From positions 4,818,831 to 4,882,830 of the forward strand of contig CM082578.2 in assembly GCA_040954595.2 (NCBI GenBank): DNA of 64,000 nt, in the 5' to 3' direction. The DNA is from Balanoglossus misakiensis (lineage: Eukaryota > Animalia > Hemichordata). The notes under the pieces are model-generated. The model made no database searches and was not told the DNA's origin. It worked only from the letters and a program-made list of their open reading frames with translations. Made by a program: the position numbers and the translations under genes. This document shows positions 12,246-61,143 of the stretch, one piece after another (within the stretch, counting starts at the first letter, position 1; the number at the start of each line of letters is the position of its first letter).

Positions 12246-12380
12246 ATTATGTAAAACAAACAAAATTGCTGATGTGGCTACAAGGTACAACTATTCCATA
12301 TCCAACCAACAGAGGGCGCTGTTTAATTATTTCATGTTCGTGAAATTGAGACTGAAAATAACTGTAGTGCCAGTTACAAA

Positions 12381-13859: not shown

Positions 13860-14694
13860 TCGAGGCGAAACCTGGCGAGACTTGGGCCGAAAAAACAAAC
13901 TCTTCCATCTTTGAATAAAGAAGTTGTCAGCAGACTGGTTATCCTTTTCAAAACGTCACATGCTCTCGCTAAACAAGTTTCCTTGGCTGTGTGACTTAGG
14001 CGAGGCTAAAGGTTTGAAAGTGGGGTCTATGTACAGGAATGATAAGAGAGCACAGGAATTTGTTTCTGCTATTGCTGATGCTGAACAAAACAAACTGGGT
14101 ACAATGATTAGGTGGTTGTCAATTATCTCAGATGGTGCCACTGATAGCTTGCACAGAGAGGCTAAAGTGTGCTATGTGAAGTCATGTCATTTGGGCGTAT
14201 CATCAACCAAATTTATTGGAATTAAAAATATTCCCAAAGCTGATGCAGTGATGGCATTTCTAGTGCTTTATCAACCTTATTATCAACCACACTTGGAGAT
14301 CATGATGAGGAATCCAAGTCTTGGAAAGATAAGGTCATAGGCTTCGGGTCAGACGGAGCAAGTGTAATGATTGGAAAGAAAGGTGGAGTGGTTAAGAAAT
14401 AAGAAATTCATACTTGGTGTCCACTGTTCTGCTCAACGGCTCGATTTGCCTTACAAAGATGTTAGTAAATCTATACCTTTGTACTCCAAAATGGATGGCC
14501 TGATGACCAACCTGTACTACTGCTACAGAAACAGTAGTTTGAACAGGAGCAATCCCATAGTGTCATTTAAAGCACTTGGAAAAAACCCATTGTTGCCAAC
14601 TCGAGTTTCAGGTACACATTGGCTACCTCATACAAAGAGTGCCTTACGGACCCTAATCGATGGATATGAACCAATTGTGACTCATCTTCAACAG
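13860..14694 (+). mobile_element. hAT (ZNF862-like) transposase pseudogene fragment
   Basis: YRNDKRAQEF, SIISDGATD, GFGSDGASVMIGKKGGV, GVHCSAQRLDL (CxxH region) and TRVSGTHWLPH, spread over several frames. Confidence 0.85.
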
Positions 14695-17600
14695 GTTAGT
14701 AAAATTTATATAGCAAAATAAATGTCTACAATCCATTGTTAATAAAAAATATCTAAATATAATTATAAATATCATAAAAATAAATATCATGGTTTTTGAT
14801 GACAATTTGAAATAGCCAATTTATGCAGTTGTTCAGTTGAAACTGAAGGTTAAAGGTCAAACTCTTTAATAACGAGCGATTTGATTAGCTAGTGGTTATG
14901 TGCCTGGACCAATCACAGAACACGTTATGTTATATGGCGACTTCAGTGAGTAAATATGTCATATTGCCGCTAGTGACAACGAGCCAATTATTACTTGTAC
15001 TGACAAATCACGGGTGAAATTGAGCGAATGTGCTGAAGTATGGAAGATTTCCGATGGGTTGGGGCAAAAAATTGCACTTCAGTTTAAGCCTGATCGAGAG
15101 CAAGAGGTTTATCACCTATGATGTTACCAGCGTTTTACAGACAAACGACATCTATCTCAAGCAGAGAAACGCAAAGAGAGTGGTAAGCTGCGGAAAACAA
15201 TTGTCGAACTTGTCGAGGAAACCAACGAAGACAAACTCCCAGGGTCTCTGCCTGTCAAGTGACGTTTAAGGTCACATTCGGGTGTGATGTCCAAGACCAA
15301 CCGCAGTGTCTTTTTAAAATATCCATTCTTTACATTGAATGAATGAGCAGCTACCAGAAATATTTCAGTATTAACTGGCAAGTAACATCCTCAGTCCTGG
15401 CCTATTCAATATGAAAAACTTGATGAAAGCAGTAGCTGACGCCATGTGGAAACTTTGCCACAAGGTGCTGCTGGCCACATAGAAAGTGAATGTCATTGAA
15501 TGATGGTGGTTCACTAGCTACTCCATTCAATTCCACATGGGAAAAAGGAAAATTTGCATGAAAGTACATTCAGTGGTAATACAGGTATGTGGGTAATACA
15601 GAACTATGGAAAAGCTGTTGTGATGTTTCACGGTTATCAGAATAGACCATCAACTAAAGATAGCACTCACTTATAAAAGATAGCAAAAATTACAGATGAC
15701 AGAAGCGCACTTCACAGGACACATGGTCAACCGTCGTACATGTAAATGAAAAGAAAGATGCATATTTATCAAATCAGAAGAATAAGCAATCAATCATCAA
15801 CAAGCCCAGCAGACAAAATGGTGTCAAAAACAAGTCATGTATGATCCTGAAGAAGATGCTGACAAGCTCATTGTCCAAAGAGTGATTGAAAGTTCATCCA
15901 CAGCTAAAACAGTGAATGTTGGCAATTACGCCAATCACTGATTTTTCTTTGCTACCCTGCACCCATTGACTTTTCCCATCAAATTTACATGTACTTCAAG
16001 TACAAAGCAAAATTAATTTTATCAAGTTATCAAAAGAACCACATGTACAATATTATATCCCCAACTGAAATAATTTTAAGCTTTAAAAACTAATTAACAG
16101 TTTCCTTAATATTTGACATGTGGTAACAATATTGTATAAGGTTTATATTAATAATCAGAGCAACCATGTAAAATATTAGACATCGAATACTGTTCCCCAA
16201 GCATAATACTAAATTTAAACTTCCAAATTACAAAAACGTCGTGTTTATTTCATGGCAACAAGCTATTTTCATAGGAATGTTAATAGCAGCCATATTGGGT
16301 TTATGCAAATTAGGCACATTTTCACAAGGTACGTGGACTCGGGTGCATGTTGTTTTACTTTTAATTTAGGTAACTGTCTGAAATCAGTTCTAAAGAAAAA
16401 ACTCTCTTACAATTGCGGTGGGTTAGGTGCCCAAATCGCGTAGATTGAATAGACTAAACGTTAAACGGTGGAAAGGTAAGACTTCTGTCATGACATTCTC
16501 ATTGTATCATGTACCGGGGGTATGGCTACATGTATATATGCTAAATGGGTGTTTGAAATGAAGCCAGTCCTCTTACTCCCAGTTGTAATACACGGGAAGC
16601 TACAAATGGGTTTTCTGTAACTACCGAGTCTGGATTTGTTGCAATCTGTCATGGATTTTCCATAGGGTACTTTTGGCAGAGTAAATCAGCCTGCACCAGT
16701 ATTGGGTGACGATTAAGTAATTCAAAGTCTACACCTTTTGACAATGACATCCTGTGTGAGCGTGTTTTGTCAAAATGAAAGATAGGCCCACAAGAAACTC
16801 ACTGTACAATTCAAGGCGACCAACGACATTCCATGCACAGTGTGTAGCTAACTCCAGCAGGAATCATCGATTCAAATGCGTACACGCATCCTTCTCGAAT
16901 ATTTGCGTCATGTCGCCCATAAATATGGCGTCATCGTTTTTGAGTGAAAATTCAGTCTAAACGTTCCACTCACTGCCTGCGATAGAACCACTGAGAGAAG
17001 AATCAAAATTCTCCTACCTCAGATGAAACTTGCATCCGGACTGCTGGCCAATACTTAGCACCAAATTTCATGAATAATATTTCCATTCTGAGGGCTAGGC
17101 GCTCCATTTAAAACACGATGGAAGTACACTTCTAATTATTAGGTCCGCCATTTTGGTCCATCATCACCACAATTATACATCGCCCTCAACGATACATGAA
17201 AGTCACCGTTTTGTTTCTACACATGTACAGCTCTCTGTGGACAGGATACTACTGCACACTGTCAGTACTGATTCCTTGCCAGTTTCAGACAGCGTATATT
17301 TTTTGATGCATACACTTGCACCGGTGGCACAAAATAGTTACAGGGGCGTAGGAAGCAATTCATGTTTGGAGAGAGGGGGGGGGGGGCAAAGTTAAGGAGA
17401 CCAACATTCTGGTGGTATTACGGTTGAAATCGACGATATTTTGCTGTGTGATGCACAAATGTCAGATATCACAGCTTGTTTGACAATAAAGAGAGCCTTA
17501 CGGACCGTAATCAATGGATATGAACCAATTGTGACTCATCTTCAATAGGTTAGTAAATTTATGTAGCAAAATAAATGTGTACAATCCATTGTTAATAAAA

Positions 17601-22040: not shown

Positions 22041-22047
22041 TATAAAA
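22041..22047 (+). promoter_or_regulatory. Candidate TATA box of lectin gene A, followed by a putative non-coding exon ending at 22172
   Basis: TATAAAA, then a GTAAG donor at 22173 and an acceptor tttctcag at 22808 just before the ATG. The same arrangement is conserved upstream of gene C (TATAAAA at about 60417). Confidence 0.5.
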
Positions 22048-22333
22048 GGACCGACAAGGGACTCCGCATGTACTTGTAGGACAGACACGAGCGAGCGTGC
22101 TTCAATTATCTCACAAGGCGTTAAACGTTAGTTTGATTTTCATTCCGACTCTTAACACAGCATTGTGCATAGGTAAGCTAAAATCATGTCTCTTCCAAGT
22201 ACATTTTGTGATAGGGTATTACTTTATTTCCATTGTTTGCCCTTTTAGTAGAATTATTATCGGTGCCATTGTGCGGATTACAGAGTCCGGTATATGCTAT
22301 TGCGCAGACGAGAAAAATATGTACATGTACGTG

Positions 22334-22428
22334 TATTGTATTGTATTGTATTGTATTGTATTGTATTGTATTGTATTGTATTGTATTGTATTGTATTGTA
22401 TTGTATTACAGTATTGTATTGTATTGTA
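22334..22428. repeat. (TATTG)n microsatellite
   Basis: Pentanucleotide run; the equivalent run in the duplicate at 60714-60958 is much longer. Confidence 0.95.
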
Positions 22429-22824
22429 AAGATATGGAAAGGTTTGATTTTATTTTTAAAACTCAATGCGAAATTAACTGTACAAGGCATTATATGTATC
22501 GCATCACAATATCGACACGTGTTTTGAATTTCTCCCATAAGTTTTGTTTTTGTTATTTTGATTATTTGTTTTATTTGGGGGGATATCGGAGAAGTAGGCT
22601 TAGCTTCAATCAGTGCAAGTGGCATCCAACTTTCAGGATTGCAGTACCTCTGCCTCTGACTCGTTTGCTTTATCACCCCCCCCCCCTCCATTTTGGGGAG
22701 TGAGCTAGGAAGGTCCGCGGGTACGATTATTGTTAAATTCTCCAGTAAATATCAAAATGTCATACAAAAATTCATGAAGCTGTTTTGTTGGTTTTTACAT
22801 TTTCTCAGTCCAATCAACGACAAG

Positions 22825-25800
22825 ATGGTGGAAGCATGGGCCTCCGGCTTCGGTATTTTCCTTGGGCTTCTGGTTATTCTTTTGACTGGTATGACGTGCG
22901 ATGGCAAGCGTAGCCAGACAGGTAAGAATGAATCACAAGATATGTTATTTAGACTTTGGATTCTAATATAAAGGCGCAACAATAAAACATGACAGTTTGG
23001 TTTGTCAACGTTTGACAGTGTGTTTACAAGCAGAAGATATCTTATCTTCTCACAACCTTTCGCCAACATGTGAACTCTATCGATGTAACCTTAACCGTAC
23101 CCCCGCTTTGGCGGTAAATGGACCAATATAGTGACCGGGAGAAGTTGGTAGACAACGCAGTACGACTGCGCATAATCCATCCCGTCACAGTTATATCTGA
23201 CAGCTTGGCTAGCTGAGAGCACTACTCCACATTGCACGAACAAAAATAATCATTTTATTTTTAATCGTTAGAAAGTGTACTTAGCACATTTTGGCTATTG
23301 CGTTCAAAATAATAAATTCTTTGGCATCATTTACGGACTCCGTAGTGACGATAACGTACATCTGATGGTTTTAGTGAGAAATACTATTTTCATGGATGAA
23401 TTGCTAGCTACTTTCCAATTCCTCGCTATGTTTGTCAAGCCCAATCAACTTGGCAGACTGATCGCTTCTATAGTATTTTCATTCACTGTCTAATGGGATC
23501 TTAAAATATAGTTAGTCACTCATGTACTCCTGCAGAATGTTGCAACAGCATCTTTTTCATTCTTTGACTTTTGTGCGTGATTCAGGTTGCGAGCCCGGGT
23601 GGGACAGTTTTAAGGATAAATGTTACTACGCCTACAAGTTTTCGTTGTATACCTACGATGAAGCGAGGACGCTGTGTATTGCAATGGGAGGTGCACTGGC
23701 GAAGATAAACGACGTCGAAGAAGACTTCTATTTGAAAGGTTTGTGATCTGTCGGACGCATAACATTGATTCGGATGTTTATTTTCGTACAAAATTATTGA
23801 GCATGGACATTGTTTAAAGATGAGTTAATCAGAATGTGTTCTCCTCCAAAAGAGATTCGCCATCAAATGTTGACGCTTCTTCTCCAGTCAAGTAGTACAT
23901 GCAGATCTGGGTAGTCCATCTACTTGACAACGATACGATTTATTTAAAGGGACACAGTCTCTCTCTCGCAGCCCTATTTCAATTAATTATGTTTGATACA
24001 AAACACTGTGACAGTTTATGTTATTCTACATGTGGATATATTGTGAATGAACGTTCGACCACATACAACTTCCATCCCGTTTGTAGGATATGAGAGTAAA
24101 AACTCGCCCTAAATGAATAAATGGTAAAGAACGATTATTCATTTTGGTGAGTTTTTCACTCTCGTGTCTACAAGTGGGATGGAAGGTGTGTGTTGTCGAA
24201 TGCTGTTTCAATATATACATCCACATGTAGAATAATGTAAACATTGTCTTGTATCAAACATAATTAATGGAAAAGGGGCAGCGAGGTATCAAACATAATT
24301 GATGGTAAATAGAGAGACTTTTTAAGGAACAAATTAAGTTTACGAAGCCCAATCTCTTTTATTGTCACAGGGTATACAGAAGGCACAGTTAATATGTGGC
24401 TGGGTGCAAACGATCGCCAGAATGAGGAAATGTGGACATGGGAAGACGGTACCTCGGTGAGTCTTTGTGTGATTCTATTGCTTTTCTGTACGATATTCAC
24501 GATGACGTGGATGTGATTAGTTTGTGAGAAGCATCAAACCCTGGTCGATTTGACATTGCACACCAACCGTCAAAGACGGACAGCTAAACCAACCAACCAA
24601 CCAACCAACCATGTACCCAACCAACCAATCGGCCAAAAAACACCGAGTCTCGCATACGCATGCAAGTACTGCTGTATGCGGGTTCCAATGCATAAAGTCG
24701 TATATGTAGAGTAAAGCCGCAATTCCCTACCGCACAACCACAACATAACTCTCAATTCTTTGGCAGATGACGTACACTAATTGGAAAACCGGCCAGCCAG
24801 ACAACACCGACAATGTCGAACACTGCTTGCATTTCTACGATAAATGGCAAGCGAAATGGAACGATGCCAATTGCGATTTGCTCATGGGATTTATCTGCGA
24901 AAAAGAAACACGTAAGTATTTTTCTCACATCTACATGTATTCACAACACTGCAATTTTTTTACGATTCTAAGTTTATTTTGTCTTTTTATTTTATTCTTT
25001 TTTTTCTCACACTACTTACAATTACTTATTTTTTATGTCACGGTAAGCTTATAAACACCAATGAATTTTGAAAACAAGACTAAATGGTAAAAGTTTACAT
25101 CTAGCATTTTTCGATTTTTCATTCAGTTGGTATAAGATGTGGGATGAAATGGCCGAGTCAGCAACTGTCTTGTGCACCAAACGGATAGAACTTTAATTGG
25201 CAGCTATTGGGGTTTTAGGTTTGAAATAAATTGTTATACCAAACATTTCGGCGCACGACACGACGACTTACTGTGTGGTGCCGCGACCAGAATTTAGCGA
25301 ATTTCAATTTATGTAAGACCAAATTCAAAACAGAAAAATAGCGTCAAGGACACTGTGGTCCCATTTGAGGATTATGCGGAAACAGTGACACACCAGAATA
25401 AAAATTACAGGTGACATTGCAAGCAGATCTGCAAGCAGCAATATCGGGCCTAAGCCAACATAGCACATAGCAACATAGCAATAAGCATATCTGCTCTGGA
25501 TGCCAAGATATGATAAAGTAGGTCAAAGGTCACCTGAGGTCATGCAAAATTTGGGCAAGAAATTTTGACCCTATACTGGTCCAGGTTCAACAAAAACCAA
25601 ACCTATAGCCCTATTGGTTAGCCTGGAATTAGGTATGCACATAATTAATGAGATATGCAGGTGTCACAGGTGACCCCCAATTTTGGCTTTTCAATTTTAG
25701 TCCCAACCCTCCAAACGCCAAGTCTGTACCTGCTCTGGATGCCAATATATGATAAAGTAGGTCAAAGGTCACCTGAGGTCATGCAAAATTTGGGCAAGAA

Positions 25801-27935
25801 ATTTTGACCTTATACTGGTCTATGTTCAACAAAAACCAAACCTATAGCCCTATTGGTTAGCCTGGAATTAGGTATGCACATAATTAATGAGATATGCAGG
25901 TGTCACAGGTGACCCCCCAATTTTGGCTTTTCAATTTTAGTCCCAACCCTCCAAACGCCAAGTCTGTACCTGCTCTGGATGCCGAGATATAGGAAAGTAG
26001 GTCAAAGGTCACCTGAGGTCACCCAAAATTTGGGCAAGAAATTTTGACCCTATACTGGTCCATGTCCCATAAGAACGAAACCTCTAGCCCTATTAGTTAG
26101 CCCGGAATTAGGTATGCACATAATTAATGTGTTAAGCAGGTGTTACAGGTGAGCCCAAAATTTTGCCTTTTATTTTGGCCCCATTGTGCTCACTGACCAA
26201 TAGACAGTCACTGTACAGGACTATTGCACAGACCAGAATTCCACAATAAGACGTGGACATAGCTTAACCATAGAGGTATGAGTAAAGGTATAAATTTAAT
26301 AAAAAGACTAAAAAATTCATAAAAAATAAAACATCGATGATATTAACTTAACACTTACAGGTCGATGTGAGGTTGACATAAGGTACATGCATACCAATTT
26401 TTAAAGCAATCTGACGAGTAGTTGTTGACTTTCAGAGTTTTGATAAATTTCACATTTTCCCAGCTAATTTGCATATTTTTGGGCCTGGCAACTTCGTTTG
26501 GACAAACTCCCATCTACAGCCTAGCCTGCACCTACACACCAAATATTGAGGTGATACGCGCAGCGGTTTTCAAGTTTTTGATGTGGACGGACATACAGAC
26601 ATACATCCATCCATACATCCATACATACATCCATACGCAACCGATCCCATAAGGTCCCATGGTATATATGCCTATACCAATGGGACCTAAAAATGGAACC
26701 AAGCAAAATCTGCCTCCGACACATTGCACAAATGACAAAGTTCCGAAAAAATGCACCGGGTCACACCGGGTATAAACCCTCATTTCAGCTTCATTTACAA
26801 CGATTTTCTGCCAGCAGGTGATTCAGCATGCGCAGTCACCGCTGTTGGGTTAGAGAGTGGCGGCATACCGGACTCACAGATAACAGCCAGTAGCAACTAT
26901 GATAACATCCACATGTCCTATCAAGGGAGACTGAACTACGCTGGGTCCGGATCGCATGCTTGGTGCGCCTTGCAGAATATCGCCGGACAGTGGCTGCAAG
27001 TTGACCTTGGTTACGAGAGACTAGTAACAAAAGTGGCAACCCAGGTGAGTCAATTGTCATGACTGAACAGTGACGAACGTGGGAGCTGTCTGTCTGTCTG
27101 TCTGTCCACTCTCGGTTACTCAAACCCCTCTGCCCAACGGAAGAAGCAGAGGGCTCTGGGTAACCGAGACTATCTGTCCACCAATCTTTTATGGAGGACA
27201 CTTTCCTATAAAGAGTGGCAACAGGTAATGAGTGGCGCCTTCCCCACATTCGATGAATACCACGTTACGTACTGCCACAACACATTAAAGCCTTATTTGG
27301 TATTGTGGTATTATAGGGACGCGGTGACTGCTGTGACCAATGGGTGAAGACGTTTCATTTAAGATACTATGGGGACGGTGAATGGAAATATGTTACTGAC
27401 GAAAACCACTCACCTATGGTAAGTGTTCGCGTCGTCCGCTCCATTTTAAGTGATATTACTTCGGAAAACATGTCTTCAACTTTCGTGTCGTAAAACCCAT
27501 TTCACACATCAACAGAAATTACGTTATATCGAACTTACTGACAATTTCTAAACTGTACAAGATGAAAGTAAAATCTGCTCATCCATACATCATGTTTGTG
27601 CAGGCTTTTTTGTTTTCATGTGCTTTGTGTTTCTCTTCCTGATGAAGTTATGATGGACAGATGAACATACACTTGTATAATTATTTGCGTTGGCTTGTAA
27701 CACCTGGCACCGTGACAACAGCATTACTAGAAATGACGAACGGACAAAGTTGATAAATCTCTTAAATTGAGAGTTCTTTTTCACATTCCAGACATTCCAA
27801 GGGAATTCTGATGCGGACACGATCGTCTACCACGACTTGGTCGAAAACTCGTTCACCACTCAGTACGTCCGATTTTATCCCCTGACGTGGGAGGGCCACG
27901 TTGCAATGAGAGCGGAGATCTACGCATGTGAATAG
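22825..27935 (+). CDS. Secreted C-type lectin + F5/8 type C (discoidin) domain protein, gene A, about 318 aa
   Basis: Exons 22825-22921, 23586-23738, 24371-24456, 24767-24911, 26815-27044, 27317-27418 and 27792-27935, all GT-AG and phase-consistent (957 nt). Signal peptide; long-form CTLD (CEPGW..FKDKCY, WLGAND, QPD, WND, FICEK); FA58C (GLESGGIPDSQITASS, WLQVDLG, VATQGR, VRFYPLTW, MRAEIYAC*). AATAAA at about 28090. Confidence 0.92.
25335..26690 (-). mobile_element. Non-autonomous Helentron/HINE (DINE-1/Pearl-like) insertion in an intron of gene A
   Basis: Absent from the matching intron of gene C. Contains about three 239-240 bp tandem monomers (25491, 25730, 25970), a (CATA/CATC)n microsatellite and a terminal hairpin ggtcccatggtata..tataccaatgggacc next to an A-run. 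Confidence 0.7.
27110..27172. mobile_element. Mini hairpin element ending in CTA with a 9-bp TSD
   Basis: tctcggttac..ctctg / cagag..gtaaccgagacta, flanked by tctgtccac at 27101 and 27173. Confidence 0.7.
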
Positions 27936-28617: not shown

Positions 28618-29920
28618 TTAATAATAACGGCATTGACTTGTTTGGTCAGCTGAAAGATAAACAAAATATGTAATTAGAGAAAAAAGTGAAGTTTCTAAGG
28701 TACATGCATTGGTTGCCCTACTACACTATGCTAAATGTGTCATTATCATAATACCTAGATTCGCGTGCTTCTGTAACTCTCTAAGAAAGAGCGCCCTCAC
28801 AACCGGGCATTTTTTACGTATCACGCCCCAGTCTCGGTTACCCAGACACTTCTGCTTCCCGGAGCGCGGGTATGTTTATGATGGAAGTGAAGCTAAAATC
28901 AATACACCTACTGGCACAAATGTACGTAAATTTTACAACAGACATGCGCATTAGCCCACTTCCGGAATGCCAAAAAATTAGCACTTTACGAAATGGCGGA
29001 TGGAGTTTATCTGCGATATAGGGATACTAAGTATATCTTGCTCGTACGGCCGGGCTCTTCCGCCGTACAACCTCGGTCCGCAAATCCCATACCTTGGGCG
29101 GGGGGGGGGGGGGGTAAAGATTACTGATAAGACCATTTGGAAGGTCTTTCCCGTGTGATTCGAATTCAAAGTGTCAAAAAGACTTTCCAAAGTGTTATAC
29201 AGTGTTATTTGACATATTCAAACCAAGATGATGGAAGGTAATCTCTTCTTGAAAAAGTGCTTATAACAAACTTACGGCAGTCATCATCGAGTGCGTTCAC
29301 ATCTCCGCCTACGGTCACAGAGCTACCGCTGTCCGTCCACGAAAACACATTTCCAACTTTCCGATCCCCATAACGACAGTTTTGACAGATAAGAAGTAAC
29401 GTGTCGAAGCCCATGTCATAGTCGAACAGTTGTAACCTGGTGAGTTTTCCGACAAATGCTTGGTATTTTTTCTGGGAGACGACACCCAAGACATCCTGGT
29501 CCTGCCCCAGGAAGAAGACGCCGCCGCCTGGAATCGTAGTTCCTGTCGCTAGCCCAGCGCCACTTCCGATACTTTCGCCATCAACAGAAATTCCAACTTT
29601 TCCCTCCTGACTCGACCAATAGGCACACACGTGATGCCAATTCGTGTCAGCCAGATTAGTCAGCTTCGAAAGTGCAGCGTAATTCATGACGTGCAGTCTC
29701 AAGCGAGTACCATAATCTTCTTGGCGCAACATCAGATCATTGCACCAGAGCTCTCCGCTGCCGCAGTAGGAGAATAAGGCAGCCTCTTCGGTCGACTGTT
29801 GGCCCGCCGACGCAGTTTTCTGCCATATACACACTGTCATCTCCGTCATGGTAGGAACGTCTACATTAACTCTAACATCTGATTCTGTTGAAGTAAACTC
29901 GAGTGTTTTGTCGGCAGCTA

Positions 29921-29967
<47 letters not shown>

Positions 29968-30610
29968 AGAGATTACTATATAATACTAAAAGTACATGTA
30001 TTTCAAATCTTCCTGTGCGATATTTGCCTTAATTACTGTTGATTTATTCTTCAAAAAGCACAAACACGTGGGCTGCATCTGAAAATCGTACAAAGACGAA
30101 TAGGTTCGTTGAATTATATCATAACACAGAAACACATTTAGACTATACATGTATTTAGAGTAGTTTTACAAACTTACTATTTACGTTTCCCGAAGCATAC
30201 CTCTTCATAATAGTAAGCTCGGATATCTCAGCGCAATCCAGTGTAAGCAACTGAAGAAGAAATAAATGTATATAGAATTTGTAAGATTGGGGCCGGTGTT
30301 TAATTCAATCCAATAATACTTTATTCAACAACTGAGCAAGTGAATTAGCTGAAGCTAATGTACGTGAAAGGTGGAAGTGAGCTTTTGGTGACCAATCCGA
30401 CTGTGGACAGGATACGAATAGGGACCGTAACAACACACACCTACGCACACTGTCACTTACACCATCTAACCAATTCAAACCAAACTAGTCTGAGGGAATA
30501 GGCTATATCCGAAACCCCAAAAAATTATCAAGTAGAAGTGACAATTCGAATCAACTTACCTGACAGACTGCAACTGCAATCAGGAACACAACTTTCAACC
30601 CAACAGCCAT
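28618..30610 (-). CDS. Secreted short pentraxin (CRP/SAP-like), about 265 aa
   Basis: Exons 30610-30560, 30250-30178, 29917-29276 and 28649-28618, GT-AG and phase-consistent (798 nt). Signal peptide MAVGLKVVFLIAVAVCQ; TVCIW, LFSY, WHHVCAYW (pentraxin signature), VDG and GGGVFFLGQDQD. AATAAA on the minus strand at about 28458. Confidence 0.9.
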
Positions 30611-41100: not shown

Positions 41101-44024
41101 AAACTATTTTATCATTAATGCGTATATATACATCAAGTTTGAAAATTAATACTCCAAGCCAGGCAGTGTACATTTGCATAAGAGTCAACATCGAAACTCG
41201 ACTTCAAGACCCAATGAGCGATTTTCTGTGCTGTTGTTTTGGATAGATCATAGACCCATGGCGTTATTTTATTATAACATAATTAGGTTATACCATGATA
41301 TCCGGTAAACACGATTTGTGGATTGGTTTAAGTGACATCGAGAACGAAGCTGATTGGAGGTGGGAAGATGGCACTGAGGTTGGTGTTATACATTTCTTTG
41401 TCTATTGATAATATCGCATGCATGCAACGAAGCTTGTTCCAGTATTATTGATCAACAAGATTGGGTGTTCGATCGATGATTTGCTCTGCAATTACGCCTT
41501 CTTCGTGCATGATGGTGTTATTTGAAAGGATATCTGAATAGTCCAGTTTGCATGATGAGAACCACGCTTCTGATTGTCAAGAGCAATGACACGGGTGTTG
41601 CTAATAGTAGGAAAATAATTGGCATTAATTAGCAATGTCTGTTCCATTGTAACGGCCAATCAGTGAGTGTGTCACGTTAAGTAATTGACTTGAACGACGT
41701 CAGAGTCAAAACCATGTTGCCGTGACATCGCATTTTGAGTTCTATTGACATGCCAAATTTCGAAGATAGTAGGCTGCGTTTCCAGACCCTCTGTGTGCGA
41801 GTCTATCTGAAACACACTTGGGTCTGGATACTAGACTACAGGCGAGTTTTTTCATTCAACAGCTGTCATACAGAAACTGGGCCACATTAGAACCACAGCG
41901 TGCCGGCAGTTGGGACTGTGCTGTCATATCAGGAGTTAGTGACGGTTACTGGAAAACAAGTGACTGTGCAGAGAAACGAGGATTCATCTGTCAAAAATCT
42001 GGTGCGAATTTCTACATGAATTTATTCACTTTGGTCATTGGTTACACTTCTCACCCAATTACAAATCATTTTCTGAATTATTTCGCTGCAACATATCTGC
42101 TGGAAATGCTTATAGAAAGGGTAATATTATAATTTGTAGTAATCAGCTTTGTTATTGTTGAAAATCGACGTCAAGTCCCGACATTAAATATTTGTCAACA
42201 TAACATTTGCCTTTACTCATGTGCAGGCTTTGTTGGGGAGCTAAAATATAATTTTAGAAAATTAAGCTATCCAGAATAGAACAAGAAACTGGTGTTGATG
42301 CACGGGGAACATAGAAAAAATATCCGCAAATCAGTCGACTGCAACGTCCGTCGCCTGTTACTAAAATGTCTCGCCCATTTCAGGTCCATGTAAGTCCGGG
42401 CCTGTTGGTGTAGAGAATGGAGTTATACCAAATTCGCAGATGACGGCGAGCTCTAATTGGAATAGTAAGCACATGTCTCATCAAGGAAGGCTTAACTACC
42501 AAGGCCCATCTGGATATTCCCATTCGTGGTGTGTACTACACAACAACGCCGCACAGTGGTTGCAAATTGACCTTGGTGGGGATAGGAAGGTCACCAAGGT
42601 CGCCACACAAGTAAGTACACAACGCACAAAGAAAAAAATACTTTCCATAGTTGGTCAAAAAACCTAAGTGACTAAATAAAGGTCGCATGAAAAATAGCAG
42701 AACAAGAGCGCAACGCATCAAGGGTTTCAATTCAACCAAATGTTGCATGCATGTTTTACAGGTTACGAACATGCTGAGCTTATACATTATGACCGCACTT
42801 TGCTTCTTGTTAAATTTACTAGGGGCGAGGTGATTATTCTCAGTGGGTGACATCATTCAAACTCGGCTACCACAAGGAACACGGACAATGGACACATGTG
42901 ACTCGGGACGATGGCTCTGAAAAGGTATTAATGTAAAATTCGGCGGGTATAAGTCACGCAATTTTTTACAAAAACGAAAGCAAGTTGGCAGAATTTCCAA
43001 TATGGCGTTTACTGTAATTAGAATCATGGGAAAAAGAGCCAAGTCTTAACTTCCGCCCAACACGATGTGGTTGATACCATTTCCCGATAGCTCTTGATTG
43101 TTTATCAACTGCTGCAAAGTACAAACAATGGCCACAGGGATTTATTCAGGGATTTGATAATAGTCGGTCAGCTTTTTCTTCTTCTTCTGTCTTTCTCTTA
43201 CCCTAACGATTCTAACTTTTCTCTTACCGATACACTCAGGCTGCCCTACTCGTGCGATGCACCCTCTTTTGGTGTGTTCTTCCTACCACCTGACCTCCAG
43301 CTGACCTCCTACCTTGCCTTAAGACAAGGTAGGAGGTCAGGCGGTAGGAAGAGTTCACCAAAAGACGGCGCATTTTATCATGCATATAATTATACTGTGC
43401 CATTGTTAATACTGTGTACGAGCAGAGAAGCCTCAGAGTTCAGGTAAGAATCGTATCGGTAAGAGAAAGACAGAATAGCTGACAGACAACAAACTTATTC
43501 AGTTTCTATCATATAATTATTTCTAAACTTTCCCTTAATAAATCCCTGTGCAATGGCTATGCAAATATGCCCAGCCTAAGTGCAGTGACACTTATCGGAA
43601 AATGGTATCGTCCACATCATTTTTGATGGAAGTGAGACCTTGCGTTCGCCTCAACCCCCCCCCCCCCCCCCCTATGATTCAAATTACAGTAAACGCCATA
43701 TAGGAAATTCTGCAAACTTTCCCCCGTTTGTGTAAAAGAAATGGCACAACTTAATTAGCACTACGAAAAGTATATTTCGGAAAGAGTGACCTCAAAGCTA
43801 CCAATTATGTAGAAATCAGGTGGACCGGACTTCCCTTTGAATAGTCCTCACCCGTCGTCACCCTCTCTTTTATGTTTCAGATTTTCATTGCGAATTCTAA
43901 CAGGAACACAATCGTCTACCATGAATTGGGAGAGAAAGCATTCACTGCAGAATCTGTTCGGTTTTATCCAGTTACCTGGTATGGTGGTATCGCCATGAGA
44001 GTGGAAATCTATGCTTGCGAGTAG
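38192..44024 (+). CDS. Secreted C-type lectin + F5/8 type C domain protein, gene B (older paralogue), about 306 aa
   Basis: Exons 38192-38255, 38964-39116 (GC donor), 41287-41378, 41863-42001, 42384-42610, 42823-42924 and 43881-44024 (921 nt, phase-consistent, same intron positions as gene A). WIGLSD, EPQ, FICQK; GVENGVIPNSQMTASS, WLQIDLG, TQGRGD, MRVEIYACE*. Confidence 0.88.
40257..40848. mobile_element. Non-autonomous Crypton-like element with a long terminal hairpin
   Basis: Starts with ttaa..gattctgattgg; nested inverted repeat 40704-40846 (gcaataacccccgcc..gggtatacac..ggtacaattc..atatagcac and its complements) ending in ttaa. Family assignment is inference. Confidence 0.5.
42960..43740. 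mobile_element. Foldback/MITE with long imperfect inverted arms, hosting the element at 43133-43550
   Basis: gcagaatttccaatatggcgtttactgtaattagaatcat versus atgattcaaattacagtaaacgccatataggaaattctgc, plus inner arms. Confidence 0.7.
43133..43550. mobile_element. P-element-like MITE
   Basis: TIRs CACAGGGATTTATT / AATAAATCCCTGTG, 7-bp TSD caatggc, and internal inverted repeats. Confidence 0.7.
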
Positions 44025-48857: not shown

Positions 48858-51800
48858 TTATGCACGGCAGGTAATTGCCACTTCATACGGTTGTGGAGTC
48901 AGGGTTAAACCCAAGTGCCCTTCCTCACTCAATTTCTCAGTCCCCTCAGGCAAAGAGAACTTGAGCTGTTGTAGCATCGATGTGAAGAATAGGAAAAGCT
49001 CTTGCTTGGCTAAATTTGCACCCATGCAGACGCGATTGCCTTGGAGGAAAAAAAGATAAATAAATGAATAAGTGGATGAATCATTGTAAAAGTAATATGA
49101 CAAAATGCATAGTTTATTCATGACTTTGCATTTGAAATACACAGAGAAAAACTGTATGTGTCAAAATCCAGAATTCAGTTTTAGGGTATATCAGAAATAA
49201 TGGTCATTGGATCAAGCAGAATGCCACTATTCGTTAAAGTCAAAGTATAAGAAGAGCATCTCTAAAAGCGTAACAATCCTTAAGATAGTCAAACGTTGCA
49301 AGTTGAACATGTTTTAGTAAAACAACTGCAAACTATGCTATGCTTATGAGAAACACTCACAACATTTATGCCTACCTGCTGAGAATGGTAGAATACGGTC
49401 AACGTCCTTCAGTGCCTTGGAGTCCTCATCATAGAATCTTTCAGGAGAGAATTTATCGGGCTCAGGGAATGTTTTCGGGTCGTTATGAATTGACCTGCAT
49501 CATCAAAATGAAAATAATAATTATAATATTTTTGGTCTGGATCAAGCACGCTGATTGGCTGTGGCCGAGGTGTATATCCTTAACTAGAAGACCTGGAGTC
49601 TGAAATTGATAACATACAAGAGAACTCGCCTGAAAAGAACACACTTTTATGAATTCTACTGGTGTTGGCATAAAATCGTGCAAATATGCTATTATCACCT
49701 GAGAAGTCTCATATCCGCAACCAAATACCCTCGCTTGCCGTTTATACTCTATTTTGCCTTGACATAAGGTATACCCCAGAGGAAATACATGCCTTGTATG
49801 TAGATTAATTTGTAGAATTTCAAGAAAAATGAAAGTACACTTGGTTTACCCACCACAAATTCATGTGGACGGTGGTGCCCTTTGGTATGTTGTAACCATT
49901 CAGAGTTGTGTCAGTTGTTGTACAGTGTGGGGTTGTGGTTGGTGCAACACTGCCCAGCCTCTGCACTTCATTGATGGTAGCTAGAGTGTAGGGCATTTTG
50001 TCTCGGTCCTCCAGCCGTGGATGTCTGTTACATCCAATGATCTGTGTATGCAGAGAAAGACACAATCAAATAGATCTTCAAGCCTAAAGTTGCCTCATCT
50101 CTCAGGTAAGACACAATAGTGCTAATATTGTGCCTCAAATATTCCTGCGTAAATTCATGACACTAGAATGGCACTCCCTGTTTTATGCAAACCTTAACAT
50201 TCACTATAGTTGTCAAAATTCGCCTTGTAAATTATACACGAACAACAAGATCTAAAAGGGCAGATTGTAATTCAGCCAAGAGTTATCCAATCTGTATGTA
50301 CAGTGTGTTAGTCAACAAACTAATGGCTAGAAAGGCCAGGCCTAGGGTAAGCACACACAGTCAATGGATAGAATGTTAAGTACCTCTTTGATTTCATGGT
50401 AGACCTTGTCTTGAACTTCTGGGTGATTCACCATGAAGAGTATGGCCCATTCAAGCGTGGTGGAAATTGAACTTGTGCCCTGTGAAAACAAGTTCATTAT
50501 AGTGAACTGCAGCTGTGAGTCAGAAAAAATGTCGTTTTTACCATTTTGCTTCTTCTGCTCAACAAGATATGCATCAACCAAGTCACGGGTGCTATCTTTA
50601 TTCAGCGCTGCTCGATGCTCTTCGATTTGCTCACGACAGAATCGTTTGACTTCCTCAGCAGAATGTATGAATCCACCAGATTTGTTGTCGAATAACTTGC
50701 GAAGTGGTTGGGGAATATTTTCGAGTGATGCCACCTCTTGATAATGTTTGTACCATTTCGTCAAACTGTCGAGTATATCGTCGAACTTGGAGTCACCATT
50801 CTTCTTCTGCTCAACCAAGTATGCATCTATGAAATCACGGATGTTGTCTTCGTCAAATGTTGCACGATGTTCTTCAATTTGCTCACGACAGAATCGTTTG
50901 ACTTCCTCAGCAGAATGGATGAATCCACCAGATTTGTTGTCGAATAACTTGCGAAGTGGTTGGGGAATATTTTCGAGAGATGCCACCTCTTGAAAATGTT
51001 TGTACCATTTCGTCAAACTGTCTAGTATATCGTCGAACTTGGAGTCACTATTCTTCTTCTGCTCAACCAAGTATGCATCTATGAAATCACGGATTTTGTC
51101 TTCGTCAAATGTTGCACGATGTTCTTCAATTTGCTCACGACAGAACCGTTTGACTTCTTCGGCAGAATGGATGAATCCACCAGATTTGTTGTCGAATAAC
51201 TTGCGAAGTGGTTGGGGAATATTTTCGAGAGATGCCACCTCTTGAAAATGTTTGTACCATTTCGTCAAACTGTCGAGTATATCGTCGAACTTGGAGTCAC
51301 CATTCTTCTTCTGCTCAACCAAGTATGCATCTATGAAATCACGGATGTTGTCTTCATCAAATGTTGCTTTATGCTCTGCGATTTGCTCACGACAGAACCG
51401 TTTGACTTCCTCGGCAGAATGTACGAATCCACCAGATTTGTTGTCAAATAACTTGCGAAGTGGTTGGGGAATATTTTCGAGAGATGCCACCTCTTGAAAA
51501 TGTTTGTACCATTTCGTCAAACTGTCGAGTATATCGTCGAACTTGGAGTCACCATTCTTCTTCTGCTCAACCAAGTGTGCATCTATGAAATCACGGATGT
51601 TGTCTTCATCAAATGTTGCTTTATGCTCTGCGATTTGCTCACGACAGAACCGTTTGACTTCCTCGGCAGAATGTACGAATCCACCAGATTTGTTGTCAAA
51701 TAACTTGCGAAGTGGTTGGGGAATATTTTCGAGAGATGCCACCTCTTGAAAATGTTTGTACCATTTCGTCAAACTGTCGAGTATATCGTCGAACTTGGAG

Positions 51801-54169
51801 TCACCATTCTTCTTCTGCTCAACCAAGTATGCATCTATGAAATCACGGATGTTGTCTTCGTCAAATGTTGCGCGATGTTCTTCAATTTGCTCACGACAGA
51901 ACCGTTTGACTTCTTCGGCAGAAAGGACGAATCCATCAGATTTGTTGTCGAATAACTTGCGAAGTGGTTGGGGAATATTTTCGAGAGATGCCACCTCTTG
52001 AAAATGTTTGTACCATTTCGTCAGGCTGTCGAGTATATCGTCGAACTTGGAGTCACCATTCTTCTTCTGCTCAACCAAGTATGCATCTATGAAATCACGG
52101 ATGTTGTCTTCGTCAAATGTTGCACGATGTTCTTCAATTTGCTCACGACAGAACCGTTTGACTTCTTCGGCAGAAAGGACGAATCCATCAGATTTGTTGT
52201 CGAATAACTTGCGAAGTGGTTGGGGAATATTTTCGAGAGATGCCACCTCTTGAAAATGTTTGTACCATTTCGTCAAACTGTCGAGTATATCGTCGAACTT
52301 GGAGTCACCATTCTTCTTCTGCTCAACCAAGTATGCATCTATGAAATCACGGATGTTGTCTTCGTCAAATGTTGCACGATGTTCTTCAATTTGCTCACGA
52401 CAGAACCGTTTGACTTCTTCGGCAGAAAGGACGAATCCATCAGATTTGTTGTCGAATAACTTGCGAAGTGGTTGGGGAATATTTTCGAGAGATGCCACCT
52501 CTTGAAAATGTTTGTACCATTTCGTCAGGCTGTCGAGTATATCGTCGAACTTGGAGTCACCATTCTTCTTCTGCTCAACCAAGTATGCATCTATGAAATC
52601 ACGGATGTTGTCTTCGTCAAATGTTGCGCGATGTTCTTCAATTTGCTCACGACAGAACCGTTTGACTTCTTCGGCGGAATGGACGAATCCATTAGATTTG
52701 TTGTCGAATAACTTGCGAAGTGGTTGGGGAATATTTTCGAGAGATGCCACCTCTTGGAAATGTTTGTACCATTTCGTCAGGCTGTCGAGTATATCGTCGA
52801 ACTTGGAGTCACCATCCCTCTTCTGCTCAACCAAGTATGCATCTATGAAATCACGCACTTGGTCCTTATCCTGGGTTGCTCGATGCTCTTTGATTTTCTC
52901 AGAACAGAACCGTTTGACTTCGTCGGCAGAACTGCTGAATTCACCAGATTTCTTTTCCAATAACTGACGAAGAGGTTCGGGAAAATTTTCAAGATTGGCC
53001 ACCTCTTGATAGTGCTTGTACCACTGAGTCAAGCTTTGGAATACCTCGTCGAACTGCACATCGCTTTGGCCAAACCTCTTACCGAAGACTAAGGCGCAGA
53101 TAACGTTTGCTACGCTTCTGGCAAAGTGCTTCTGAAGATTCGCCTGTTTTCCATCATGCTCCTAAGAAACAAATGTATCGGATAAATTAAGCAAACATTT
53201 CATGTAAAGGGTGCACTTGCAGGTCTGGTGTAAACAAACATTTCATCAATCACATGATGTGACAACAAGTAAAGTGTATGCTGTAAGGATCACCCTCTGC
53301 AATTTGTCTGCCAATACCTTCAGTGTGTCGACCAACGCTGCCGCTTCTTCGGTAATGCTACCTTCCATGCTGGACTTTCCAAATCCCAGTTCCCTCAGGG
53401 TGACGTGTGCAAATTTTCGCTGATGTTGCCATTCTTTGGTATACTGGCTGTCACCAATGCCTACAGAAGGAACCATGGATACATGAATTGCATTTGCCTG
53501 GAATCGTCACTTGGAACTCTTTTATCACGATCTCTTTTGCTCCCACCTGTTTTAATTGCATCTGACGCTGTTCCCTTCTGCAATGGGAAACTGATATTTT
53601 GAATTGCGAGAACCGTTAGCAATTTTTAGAACGACGTAAGCCTATTTTGAATCATGTCCACCCAAACAAGATGGAACATGCTAGTTTAGCTTTTGAGCTT
53701 TCAAAATGACTACTACTTCACCCGGACAAAGAGCTCTTGGAGAACGTCTATACTACCAGACAATTGACCTATATAGGAAAATTGTCTTTCCTAAAAATTC
53801 CCCCAGATATTTACCTTCATACTGTGGGTTGAACACCCCAATGTGCCAAGATTTTGGACGATCAGCAAAATCTTTCCCCTTCTTCACCAACGCCTCTTTG
53901 ATGGTGTCCAGGCCATTGACGACCACGACAGGCTGTCCGTTCAGCTTCAAACTAAACACTTCACCATACTTTTCCTTGATCTTCAACCAATCCTTGAAGG
54001 GAGCCTTGCGTGAAGATACCAGGGCACTGCCGATGACCGGCAGCCCCCACGGACCCGGAGGAAAATTCTTGCACGGGGCCCGGTAGTGTTTGGCGGTGAT
54101 CCAAATTATCAGAGCGGTCAACAGCGCTTGAAGGAAGAAAAGTGGATCGGTTGGTATTACAGCGTACAT
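48858..54169 (-). CDS. Cytochrome P450 (clan 2, CYP2-like) with a 10x tandem F-G-H-helix expansion, about 1254 aa
   Basis: Exons 54169-53815, 53460-53318, 53161-50384, 50041-49854, 49494-49376 and 49039-48858, all GT-AG and phase-consistent (3765 nt). N-terminal membrane anchor, PPGPWGLPVIG, FADRP, WQHQR (WxxxR), GFGK, VANVIC..VFGKRF, EVQR (ExxR), PERF, and FSAGNRVCMG (haem Cys). Confidence 0.93.
50536..53055 (-). repeat. Coding tandem repeat, 10 x 252 bp (84 aa), inside P450 exon 3
   Basis: The junction ttggagtcac occurs at 50787, 51039, 51291, 51543, 51795, 52047, 52299, 52551 and 52803 (exact 252-bp period); there are no stops or frameshifts. Confidence 0.97.
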
Positions 54170-57662: not shown

Positions 57663-60600
57663 TTTTTATGAAACCCGACGCTTGTCTCCTCATCGAACTA
57701 GCTTTTTTGTTGAAGTAAATTCGACTACAGGGTAAATGCACTCGGATTGAATGTAATTCAAACTTTCACTTCCTTATTCAACTTGATATGATACCCCGAG
57801 TCTCGTGAAAACCGCCATTAATACCCAATTTCCCCTAAAGTATATTTCAGCTGTAAGAGAGAGAGAGAGAGAGACAGAGAGAGAGACAGAGACAGAGAGA
57901 CATAGACAGAGAGACAGACAGACATACTCGGGAAGCAGACATCAGATAGACAGACAGAGACGGAGGTCCGTGGTCCGCTGTCGAAACATGCCTTTGGGGT
58001 TTGTTGGTACATGTCACCAATCTTTGACATTTAATTACTGTCTGCTGACCAGCAACAGTCCACAAAGACAGTCTATTGATTCTTGATCCCGCCATACTTC
58101 CGGGTACATATCGCCAGGTACTGCCACGGGTGAACATACCACACTATCTTCCGTGGGAACGGATAGGTGCGGGAGGCAGGGGGGGGGGCGTGCGTTGCCA
58201 CGATGCGCATTGGTCCTGAGCACGGCCAAAACAGATAGACAAGACTATTGTGTTGTTTGTGTTCAGTGTGGCATTGTTGTGTGAGGAAGAACGGGAATAT
58301 GTTAAATATACTACAACCGTTATAGTACTGAGCTTGTTTCCGTGAAGAGAAATTTTAGTAATACATGTATTGTATATCAAAACACAATTCTCGGCCAAAA
58401 AGTAACCAAAATAATGTAAAAAGTGGCCCACTGTGCCTCAGTCTTTAAATATTTGGACGAATGGGATTTTTTCCTCGATGATCAGACCACAGTCACGATC
58501 ATCTGATGCCGGGGAAACCACCAGATGCGCTCCGCCAGGTGAATCATCGATTCCCGTTCTGTGTCCGGCGGTCACGTCACACAGGTACAATGCTTACGTA
58601 ACGTACTTCCTGCATGGAGTAGGTTGAGTGCGATAGTACCTGACGTCACATTCAAGACAGACATGCAAATATCGTTTAGTTCCTTCTCTCTGCTCAATCG
58701 TGCATGCCAGAACAAAACCATAGATGACCTAGATCTGTGAACACAGAAATAGGTTGTTGGCAAGGAAATCGCTTTTAAGTCTATGGCGTTTTGATCTGAA
58801 AAAAAAATGAAAAAGGGAATGATCTGTGACTTACCCCGTACGAGCGCTCTAATTCGTGCGAGTGGTAGAAAAAGCCACTTCTCAATATTAGACTGAATTC
58901 CATGAAATTACAGACATTACAATCTCTTGGAAACAAAACACACACGCACACGAAAGTGGAATTTCTCACGGGTTTTGCAAACACATTCTGCCTGTTCGTA
59001 GACTTACCAGGAAAAGCAGACATGCTATGTTCATGGCATTCTAATCCATGCGGATTGCCATTTAAACTACCACACCCCTTCAAATCTCAGTGCAATTGTG
59101 CCATAGTTTTATTTCCTTGTAACAAACTGAGAAAGCGGAAGATTCCAGTTCGATATTTCTGTTCCTGGCAAAATACTTTCCCCGTTACGGAACAAAGACA
59201 TTGAAACAATTCACAATTTTAACGTAATTCGGTCAGAACAGACTCGTCAAATATAATCAGCCCCATTTCCCCCCTTCTTGACGGTATAAGATCATTACAA
59301 GATAGTCGTATTTAAAAAGAAGATGCCAGTTATTTTATATACATCCCAGTGTCAATGCTAAAATTCGTCATCATGATGACAATATATCATCTGTGAATGA
59401 ATGAATTAGGCCTAATGACTGACTGACTGACTGACTGACCGTATGGATGGATGGATGAATGAACGAACGAAAGAACGAACGAACGGATAGATGGATGGAT
59501 GAATGAATGAATGAATGGATGAATGAATTGTGATAGCAGTATGAATTTATCGAATTCTGCATTTCATACAACTACATTCAACTCTTAAAAATCGGTTGTC
59601 TTTGAACTCCTACAGGTGTGCAAGTTCGTGACCTTAGTTCTGCCCTGCCCTGCCCTGTCACGTGACCCTACCAGGAAGTAACCAGCCAAATATTAGGTCC
59701 GCAAGGAGAGAGGAAGACGAAGTGGTTTGTCGTCGAGCTGTGTCTCCCAGAGCCGTCACATTGCATTTATATTGGGCCAGTATGTTTATCTTGGATACAG
59801 GCAAGCTTCGGTCGTAGACAGGAGGAATATCATCGTCAAATATTTGCCAGTTCCTTCGAGTCTTCAACTTCAGCGAGTCGGTGCTGGACTCATAGCGTTC
59901 ACCGGCTCCTGTTATTACGCTCGGCACACACAGCATTGGGACATTTACACATGTTTATTTGCCAACACATAATAAATTTTTGTAAAGAATAAAAACAATG
60001 TTCAGTTAATACTGATGAGGGAAGACATCAGTTTCCAGTTTCAAAATCTTTTCATGGGAGCGGTGTTTTTCTTTTTTACAAGATATATATAAATTGAATC
60101 ACCACCCCCACCTGATGAGGGGGGGGGGGGGAATTTCAAAATCTTTTCAGTTCAGAAGGGGGGATTTGAAAATATTTCGGTTATGTACGGAGGGGGGGGC
60201 AAAAAATTGAATTCTCCCGCACCCCACTCCCCACCCTCTCCAGAGGTGTTTGTGAATGCAGCCTAAGCGACAGTCATATGGGTCAACCTCCTGTTGACAA
60301 AATCCGAGTCCAGGCCGTTGATCTTTGGATCGAGGACCTTATCCGAGTCCTTGATCTTTGGATCCCCAGGAAACATTAACCGGAATCCAGTCTTCGCCGC
60401 CCCCCTGCGTGGGTAATATAAAAGGACCGACAAGGGACTGCGCATGTACTGTACTTGTAGGACAGACACGAGCGAGCGTGCTTCAATTCTCTCACAAGGC
60501 GTTAAACGTTAGTTTGATTTTCATTCCGACTCTTAACACAGCATTGTGCATAGGTAAGCTAAAATCATGTCTCTTCCAAGTACATTTTGTGATATTTGTT

Positions 60601-60713
60601 ACTTTATTTCCGTTGTTTGCCCTTTTAGTAGAATTATTATCGGTGCCATTGTGCGGATTACAGAGTCCGGTATATGCTATTGCGCAGACGAGAAAAATAT
60701 GTACATGTACGTG

Positions 60714-60958
60714 TATTGTATTGTATTGTAAAGTTGTATTGTATTGTAAAGTTGTATTGTATTGTAAAGTTGTATTGTATTGTATTGTATTGTATTGTAT
60801 TGTATTGTATTGTATTGTATTGTATTGTATTGTATTGTATTGTATTGTATTGTATTGTATTGTATTGTATTGTATTGTATTGTATTGTATTGTATTGTAT
60901 TGTATTGTATTGTATTGTATTGTATTGTATTGTATTGTATTGTATTGTATTGTATTGT
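60714..60958. repeat. (TATTG)n microsatellite
   Basis: Direct reading. Confidence 0.95.
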
Positions 60959-61143
60959 AAGCGAGAAGTAAGCTTAGCTCCAATCAGTGCAAGTGGCATC
61001 CAACTTTCAGGATTGCAGTACCTCTGCCTCATGTAATAGTTTGACTCGTTTGCTTCAGTAAATATCAAAATGTCATACGAAAATTCGTATTCATGCAGCT
61101 GTTTTGTTGGTTTTTACATTTTCTCAGTCCAATCAACGACAAG

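What the first reader, a model, noticed from the sequence alone, without database searches (positions are those of the whole stretch)
48858..54169. Giant P450 with ten in-frame copies of its F-G-H helical lid
Seen: the spliced CDS is 1254 aa. Removing nine of the ten 84-aa units leaves 498 aa, a normal P450 length, so this is a clean internal amplification. The unit runs from just after FGKRF to just before the I-helix and contains FP..L, F..E.I.EH and RDFIDAYL. Established: these are the CYP2-clan F helix, F/G loop, G helix and H helix, which form the substrate-access lid and contact the membrane. The membrane anchor, WxxxR, ExxR, PERF and haem Cys motifs and all splice sites are intact. Inference: the core could fold with the F helix of unit 1 and the G/H helices of unit 10, extruding about 750 aa of amphipathic helical repeats as a new domain (a lipid or ligand sponge, a membrane-shaping or oligomerisation module, or swappable lids). 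I know of no described P450 with this architecture, but I could not search.
Basis: partly seen in the sequence, partly recalled or inferred. Interest (0 to 1): 0.93.

Follow-up and report, generated by a model that had tools for sequence, protein, structure and literature searches.

The report
P450 with ten spare lids
A marine animal gene, likely from an acorn worm, encodes a cytochrome P450 in which the three-helix lid over the active site is repeated ten times in frame; the copies show purifying selection and the oxygen-activating motif is altered, so it is likely a working but unusual haem protein and not a sequencing error.

Summary
Observation confirmed: six GT-AG exons give a 1254-aa P450 with ten in-frame 84-aa F-G-H units in one 2778-nt exon. 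Not an assembly slip: no two units are identical, and short-read contigs pile 5-8x single-copy depth on one unit. One run holds a spliced contig (last unit joined to exons 4-6) and a closed 252-nt loop, so RNA likely carries at least two units; ten is unproven. Units 2-9 show omega about 0.25 (p about 0.002); unit 1 versus 10 dS 0.7, so a multi-unit state is old. Best reading: an ER-anchored, non-canonical CYP2-clan protein that uses one late-type lid and carries interchangeable spares. No like array in 264 homologues, ten paper searches or earlier scan notes; the widest protein search never ran.

The parts
53815..54169 (-). Exon 1: start codon, hydrophobic anchor (54142-54092), PPGPWGLP hinge (54061-54038), N-terminal P450 region
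   Evidence: (PF00067 E 1.4e-13)
53318..53460 (-). Exon 2: C-helix WxxxR (53431-53417)
50384..53161 (-). Exon 3 (2778 nt): E helix, ten F-G-H units, I and J helices
53060..53086 (-). E-F loop FGKRFGQSD; the Tyr held by 90% of 145 relatives is Gln
   Evidence: motif RFDYKD in PMC4241269 passages
52811..53062 (-). Unit 1, most derived copy, likely a decaying spacer
50795..52810 (-). Units 2-9, near-identical middle type (93-99.6% DNA), closest to the ancestral lid, omega about 0.25; subgroups 3/4/5, 6/7, 8/9
50543..50794 (-). Unit 10: F and G helices of the middle type, own G-H loop and H helix
50465..50482 (-). I-helix motif QGTSSI in place of [AG]G-x-[DE]T[TS]
49854..50041 (-). Exon 4: K-helix EVQR (49969-49958); both splice joints seen in run X3
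49376..49494 (-). Exon 5: PERF (49445-49434), start of haem loop
48858..49039 (-). Exon 6: haem cysteine (FSAGNRVCMGA; Ala where 137 of 145 relatives have Glu), stop codon
48389..48857 (-). 3' untranslated region; spliced contig reaches 48405, AATAAA at 48394

Best explanation
This is an intact CYP2-clan P450 gene with ten tandem copies of the F-G-H lid in one exon, likely translated as a 146-kDa ER-anchored haem protein that likely docks one late-type lid (units 2-10) on its core and carries the rest as interchangeable, water-facing spares. Shown: reading frame, splice sites, array, synonymous excess, polar F'-G' stretch, altered I-helix motif. Inferred history: one old duplication gave a first and a last copy (dS 0.5-0.7); unequal crossing-over between them made a chimeric middle unit (start like unit 10, end like unit 1), and further unequal crossing-over multiplied it. 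Inferred structure: unit 1 became a spacer looped out at the E-F junction, where the conserved Tyr is also lost; because any later unit can fill the lid site when the protein folds or opens, a bad change in any of them spoils part of the protein pool and is purged. Inferred chemistry: with Gln at the Ala position over the haem and Ser-Ser for the Glu-Thr proton relay, it is probably a poor or non-standard monooxygenase that takes a more polar substrate from the cytosol side.
For: Open frame and 5 of 5 GT-AG introns. Run X3 has contig joints 50384>50041 and 49852>49492 at the predicted introns, absent from X1 and X2, plus a 282-nt closed loop equal to one unit across a unit-unit junction. Summed contig depth on one unit 5.3-8.0x single copy at 7 of 8 listed sites, 11.5x at one (rough). 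Variants among units 2-9: 15 of 25 synonymous against 19-28% expected, p 7e-6 to 8e-4; codon model omega 0.25, LRT 9.7 against omega 1. In unit positions 163-216 the middle type differs from unit 10 at 8 of 10 synonymous sites yet is the most ancestral in protein, which copying from unit 10 cannot explain. Units form one clade (100/98), unit 1 on a 0.45 branch. X1 shows one flat contig over each unique exon, so no paralogue of 90% identity or more is seen that could donate the variants. [quoted passage not shown]
Against: No protein evidence. All three runs are one sample and one study, possibly the source of the window, and X3 is labelled 'DNA?'; its RNA nature is my inference from the joints. 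The loop proves two units in RNA, not ten. Variants private to units 2-9 are only 6 synonymous of 12 (p 0.015-0.09 by transition bias), and recombination among units breaks the tree that the codon test assumes. A weak in-frame donor (unit position 250) and acceptor (position 220) exist in most units and could shorten the array to two units. The three-unit fold failed (pLDDT 42), so nothing shows how units pack. The core departs at 13 of 87 conserved columns against 5-10 in five relatives, which also fits early decay. Which lid the core uses rests on rates of change alone.
Confidence: 0.5

Rival explanations
1. Tolerated expansion: one lid (unit 10) does the work, the extra units are passengers kept in frame only because the haem domain lies downstream, and they look conserved because unequal crossing-over keeps copying them from the working unit.
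For: Positions 1-160 of the middle units nearly equal unit 10; 13 of 25 variants among units 2-9 are shared with unit 1 or 10, and the 12 private ones give only a weak synonymous excess; found in one genome only; contigs hold a unit variant that the window lacks, so the array is still in flux.
Against: The middle G-H/H segment is far from unit 10 at synonymous sites (8 of 10) but closest to relatives in protein; units 4 and 7 differ with dS 0.15 and dN 0.03 (p 0.013), units 2 and 9 with 0.21 and 0.015.
Confidence: 0.25
2. New domain: the core folds with fixed parts and the extruded units form a helical repeat domain with its own job, such as binding partners, ligands or membranes.
For: Purifying selection on middle units; long stem branch 0.71 before the units split, in which F'-G' became polar, as if the unit adapted to life outside the membrane; F-G regions mediate P450 dimers (PMC5276844 passages).
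Against: Middle units keep the ancestral core-facing sequence better than the end units, which a repurposed domain need not do; polar F'-G' argues against a lipid or membrane role; no confident multi-unit fold.
Confidence: 0.15
3. The array is mostly spliced out, or the gene is a young pseudogene whose array grew after function was lost.
For: Weak in-frame donor/acceptor pair in most units; altered I-helix and 13 of 87 conserved columns changed.
Against: No such joint in X3; the loop contig runs through both candidate sites; no pair restores a clean one-unit protein; frame open although a neutral unit at 0.25-0.35 changes per site stays open only 8-16% of the time, indels aside; omega under 1.
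Confidence: 0.07
4. Assembly artefact that multiplied one or two units.
For: No read or contig spans the array; units 3/4/5 and 6/7 differ by only 1-3 nt, so the exact count could be off.
Against: 0 of 45 pairs identical, nested subgroups, synonymous bias; single contigs at 5.3x and summed depth near 8x single copy.
Confidence: 0.03

Closest known systems
Hemichordate CYP2U1-like P450s (Ptychodera flava P0001 first copy; Saccoglossus kowalevskii P0003-P0005; Glandiceps talaboti P0009)
   Same: Nearest relatives: 62% over exon 1, 63% over the C-terminal part, 42-51% over the unit with the Ptychodera copy; core groups with them at SH-aLRT 99 in a quick tree.
   Different: One F-G-H unit, about 495 aa, canonical [AG]G-x-E-T motif; P0001 is three P450s run together with I helices between, not an array.
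Insect CYP4G decarbonylases
   Same: A natural P450 group with a long insertion in the lid region and unusual chemistry (+44 residues between G and H, bioRxiv 10.1101/2025.11.13.688110 passages; 'between F and G' in PMC4654499 passage).
   Different: Other clan; insertion is 44 aa of non-repeated loop, here 756 aa of whole structural units.
Sciurus carolinensis CYP2J5 gene model P0129 (MBZ3886630.1)
   Same: The only one of 264 fetched proteins with a directly tandem lid repeat.
   Different: One exact 59-aa G-H copy without the F helix, in a single-member cluster; probably an exon duplication or model error.
P450s with a non-canonical I helix (CYP255 peroxygenases; CYP20)
   Same: Acid-alcohol pair replaced or motif degenerate while the haem cysteine is kept (PMC11842817 and PMC8110760 passages).
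   Different: CYP255 has Gln-Glu at the pair; here the pair is Ser-Ser and the Gln lies three residues earlier. No repeats reported in the passages seen.

Membership tests
Cytochrome P450 superfamily | Haem loop FxxGxRxCxG | tested here: met
   FSAGNRVCMG, aa 1192-1201
Cytochrome P450 superfamily | K-helix ExxR and meander PERF | tested here: met
   EVQR aa 1117, PERF aa 1172
Cytochrome P450 superfamily | Match to Pfam PF00067 along the whole fold in order | tested here: met
   Exons 1-4 and 6 match in order; exon 5 not scanned alone
Cytochrome P450 superfamily | Thiolate-bound haem, 450-nm CO spectrum | not testable with these tools
   needs protein
Canonical P450 monooxygenase | I-helix [AG]G-x-[DE]T[TS] with acid-alcohol pair | tested here: not met
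   QGTSSI; Q 0 of 145, S 3 of 145, S 15 of 145 relatives; motif from PMC8110760 passages
Canonical P450 monooxygenase | About 500 aa, one F-G-H lid | tested here: not met
   1254 aa, ten units
Microsomal CYP2 clan | N-terminal anchor and proline hinge | tested here: met
   aa 10-26 hydrophobic by inspection, PPGPWGLP aa 37-44; no topology predictor run
Microsomal CYP2 clan | Groups with clan-2 proteins | tested here: met
   Nearest named hits are CYP2-type; quick tree of 22 rows places the core among hemichordate CYP2U1-like proteins; no other clans were in the tree
Microsomal CYP2 clan | Hydrophobic F'-G' membrane contact | tested here: not met
   more polar than 144 of 144 relatives; membrane role from PMC5276844 passages
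Microsomal CYP2 clan | E-F loop motif R-F-x-Y-x-D | tested here: not met
   RFGQSD, Tyr lost; motif in PMC4241269 passages
CYP4G | +44-residue non-repeated G-H insertion, insect clan 4 | tested here: not met
CYP255-type peroxygenase | Gln-Glu at the acid-alcohol positions | tested here: not met
   Ser-Ser

The most novel reading that the evidence does not exclude
A P450-derived protein in which the lid has become a repeat domain: eight or more fold-competent, water-soluble lids that swap on one haem core, or dock onto other P450 cores in trans, paired with a rewired active site that runs non-monooxygenase chemistry or senses a ligand; a natural proof that the F-G-H block is a detachable module.
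Probability: 0.3. Interest if true: 0.9.

Novelty: new variant of a known kind. Interest (0 to 1): 0.72.

Why it matters
The P450 fold is treated as a fixed 500-residue unit whose F-G lid sets substrate access and membrane contact. A natural gene that has carried extra whole lids for a long time, under selection, would show that this block is modular and can be looped out, give a ready system to test lid exchange and P450 folding, and suggest lid-swap designs for enzyme engineering. The altered I helix adds a possible new chemistry in a little-studied animal group. If the extra units are passengers it is still a striking case of tolerance, but of one species only.

Tried and rejected
No whole genome is held, so paralogues could not be listed. 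No RNA holder listed. X3 contigs do not cover exons 1-2 or unit types 6-9, and the loop contig has lower depth (5.8) than the 3' contig (17.8); contigs drop variants and depth cannot rank parts of a gene, so neither is used. Three-unit fold with window rows only: pLDDT 42, no verdict. Three copies of one unit in the complex tool: no answer, alignment not used, no evidence either way. Whole-exon alignment with full-length relatives was scattered and not used for folding. The full-length spliced protein was not folded. The 1.84-billion representative search never ran (queue full, 10 tries), so the homologue census rests on three word-index searches capped at 2000 aa and 7995 candidates; unannotated genomes are not covered. 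Atlas: only plain P450 clusters, recognition low; two-unit query unanswered. Self-BLAST printed nothing even for a known multi-copy protein and was discarded; the HMM census replaced it. The many non-P450 Pfam hits on exon 3 are sums of weak repeats with zero passing stretches. 17 of 18 multi-hit homologues have 78-661 residues between hits, 11 with an I-helix motif in a gap, and read as merged gene models. A link to acorn-worm bromophenol chemistry (recalled) found no support in two searches and one paper's passages. 'Internal duplication' passages in PMC8670302 and PMC10785452 concern gene copies. Earlier scan notes: one unrelated note on a MITE in a P450 exon, nothing by sequence or place. 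PMC2490781 was not held.
Full report
1. Observation. The gene lies on the minus strand in six exons, 54169-48858, all five introns GT-AG, giving 1254 aa without an internal stop, 146 kDa, pI 5.5. Exon 3 (2778 nt) holds ten 252-nt units without indels. With one unit the protein is 498 aa. The unit matches Pfam p450 positions about 166-252, aligns to the G and H helices and the run-up to the I helix of CYP2B6, and folds, given 47 relatives, as F/F', G', G and H helices at pLDDT 89 with CYP2 structures as best though weak matches. Helix names are from recalled P450 anatomy and these matches.

2. Organism and family. Nearest relatives are hemichordate CYP2U1-like proteins, best Ptychodera flava at 62% over exon 1; the core sits beside that copy in a quick tree. 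An acorn worm is therefore likely. No genome was held; the window has no other P450 piece.

3. Is the array real? 0 of 45 unit pairs are identical and they fall into nested groups. In run X1 unique flanks lie at depth about 60, one repeat contig at 317, and summed depth on a single unit is 5.3-8.0x at 7 of 8 listed sites and 11.5x at one; eight middle units are expected. The tool warns that summed depth is no copy number, and allele shares fit the window only loosely (0.8x for a variant carried by three window units). A variant at unit position 201 is in the contigs but in no window unit, so another haplotype probably differs. No contig spans the array; ten exactly is not proven. The three runs are one sample.

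4. Transcription. Run X3, labelled 'DNA?', has a 1257-nt contig that runs from inside unit 10 through exons 4, 5 and 6 to 48405, with two listed joints exactly at GT-AG introns that X1 and X2 lack; I read it as RNA. A second contig of 282 nt equals unit 4 with identical first and last 30 nt, a closed loop across a unit-unit junction. It starts at the same unit position as the spliced contig. So transcripts likely hold at least two tandem units; the number is open. A crude scan found a weak in-frame donor (position 250, 7 of 9 consensus) and acceptor (position 220, 10 of 17 pyrimidines against 11-16 in the real acceptors) in most units, which could cut the array to two units, and a donor/acceptor pair that would remove helix H; none restores a clean one-unit enzyme, and no such joint was seen.

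5. History. The middle type equals unit 10 over positions 1-160, equals unit 1 over 217-252, and is a third type over 163-216: the pattern of unequal crossing-over between an old first and last copy, then amplification. Unit 1 versus unit 10: dS 0.70, dN 0.25, omega 0.35, p 0.002. All six units tested form one clade against 11 hemichordate lids (100/98), so the duplication arose in this lineage. A neutral unit at 0.25-0.35 changes per site keeps an open frame in 8-16% of simulations.

6. Selection on the spare units. Among units 2-9, 15 of 25 variant alleles are synonymous against 19-28% expected (p 7e-6 to 8e-4); codon-model omega is 0.25 (LRT 9.7, p 0.002) and 0.35 for all ten. Against this: the 12 variants not shared with an end unit give 6 synonymous, p 0.015-0.09, and recombination violates the tree. 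The strongest point is the G-H/H segment, far from unit 10 at 8 of 10 synonymous sites yet the most ancestral in protein. No close paralogue that could act as donor is visible in X1.

7. Which lid is used? Middle units match five hemichordate relatives at 17 sites where unit 1 matches at 3 (p 0.003); in the G-H half they beat unit 10 by 7 to 1 (p 0.07). Branches: unit 1 0.45, unit 10 0.11, middle about 0. The E-F loop has lost its conserved Tyr (motif in PMC4241269, passages). It is inference from rates; the three-unit fold failed.

8. Surface and active site. The F'-G' stretch, which binds membranes in microsomal P450s (PMC5276844, passages), has GRAVY -0.9 to -1.2, below 144 of 144 relatives (mean +0.42, lowest -0.52; one of 145 rows dropped as too short); some Saccoglossus proteins are already mildly polar. 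The 145 rows were those of 440-530 aa among 224 proteins then fetched, plus the first Ptychodera copy. The I-helix motif reads QGTSSI, the residue after the haem-loop Gly is Ala (0 of 145), and 13 of 87 conserved columns differ against 5-10 in relatives. The acid-alcohol pair delivers protons for oxygen activation (PMC9260165, passages), and natural P450s that change it can be peroxygenases (PMC11842817, passages); I-helix variation is also common enough in invertebrates (PMC8110760, passages). Haem ligation looks intact; ordinary monooxygenase activity is doubtful.

9. Comparison. Of 264 fetched proteins 251 had a lid match and 18 had more than one; only a squirrel gene model has a directly tandem copy, one exact 59-aa G-H repeat in a one-member cluster. 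CYP4G has a 44-residue lid-region insertion (passages). Paper searches for repeated or long P450 lids and hemichordate P450s listed nothing of this kind; I saw listings and abstract starts only, the library lacks most subscription papers, and no supplements were read, where genome papers might list the gene. The widest protein search did not run.

10. Verdict. A real and apparently undescribed architecture: new variant of a known kind. Probability that the gene is translated with several units about 0.85; that the spare units are interchangeable lids 0.5, passengers 0.25, a new domain 0.15. Interest 0.72: very surprising to a P450 specialist and easy to test, but one gene, one sample, no protein data.

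Noticed in passing
window 50698-50668: The spliced contig starts at the same unit position as the loop and has one difference from the window; if it is at unit position 119, the RNA carries a combination (A119 with A127) that no window unit has, i.e. a recombinant allele. Inferred.
   Followed up: partly
window 52955 and 52963: X1 contig differs from unit 1 at two places (Glu to Asp, and a silent change), probably the other allele.
   Followed up: partly
window 29205-29972 (-): Open frame with a pentraxin domain (PF00354, E 1.4e-18).
   Followed up: no
window 41773-42132 (+): Exon-sized C-type lectin piece (PF00059, E 1.4e-5).
   Followed up: no
window 8207-8656 (-): Reverse transcriptase fragment (PF00078, E 1.3e-21), likely a decayed retroelement.
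   Followed up: no
window 11785-14721 (+): C17orf113-type zinc finger (PF25431, E 4.6e-10) followed by broken frames that look like a DNA transposon relic by eye; no Pfam hit for those.
   Followed up: no
window 25491-26171: 240-bp tandem repeat, 2.8 copies, 93% alike; stops in all six frames.
   Followed up: partly
window 22046-22751 and 60355-61113: Two copies of one interspersed element with a TGTAT microsatellite.
   Followed up: no
protein P0001 (Ptychodera flava, 1556 aa): Gene model that merges three neighbouring P450s and an unrelated insert; shows a tandem cluster of one-lid relatives.
   Followed up: yes
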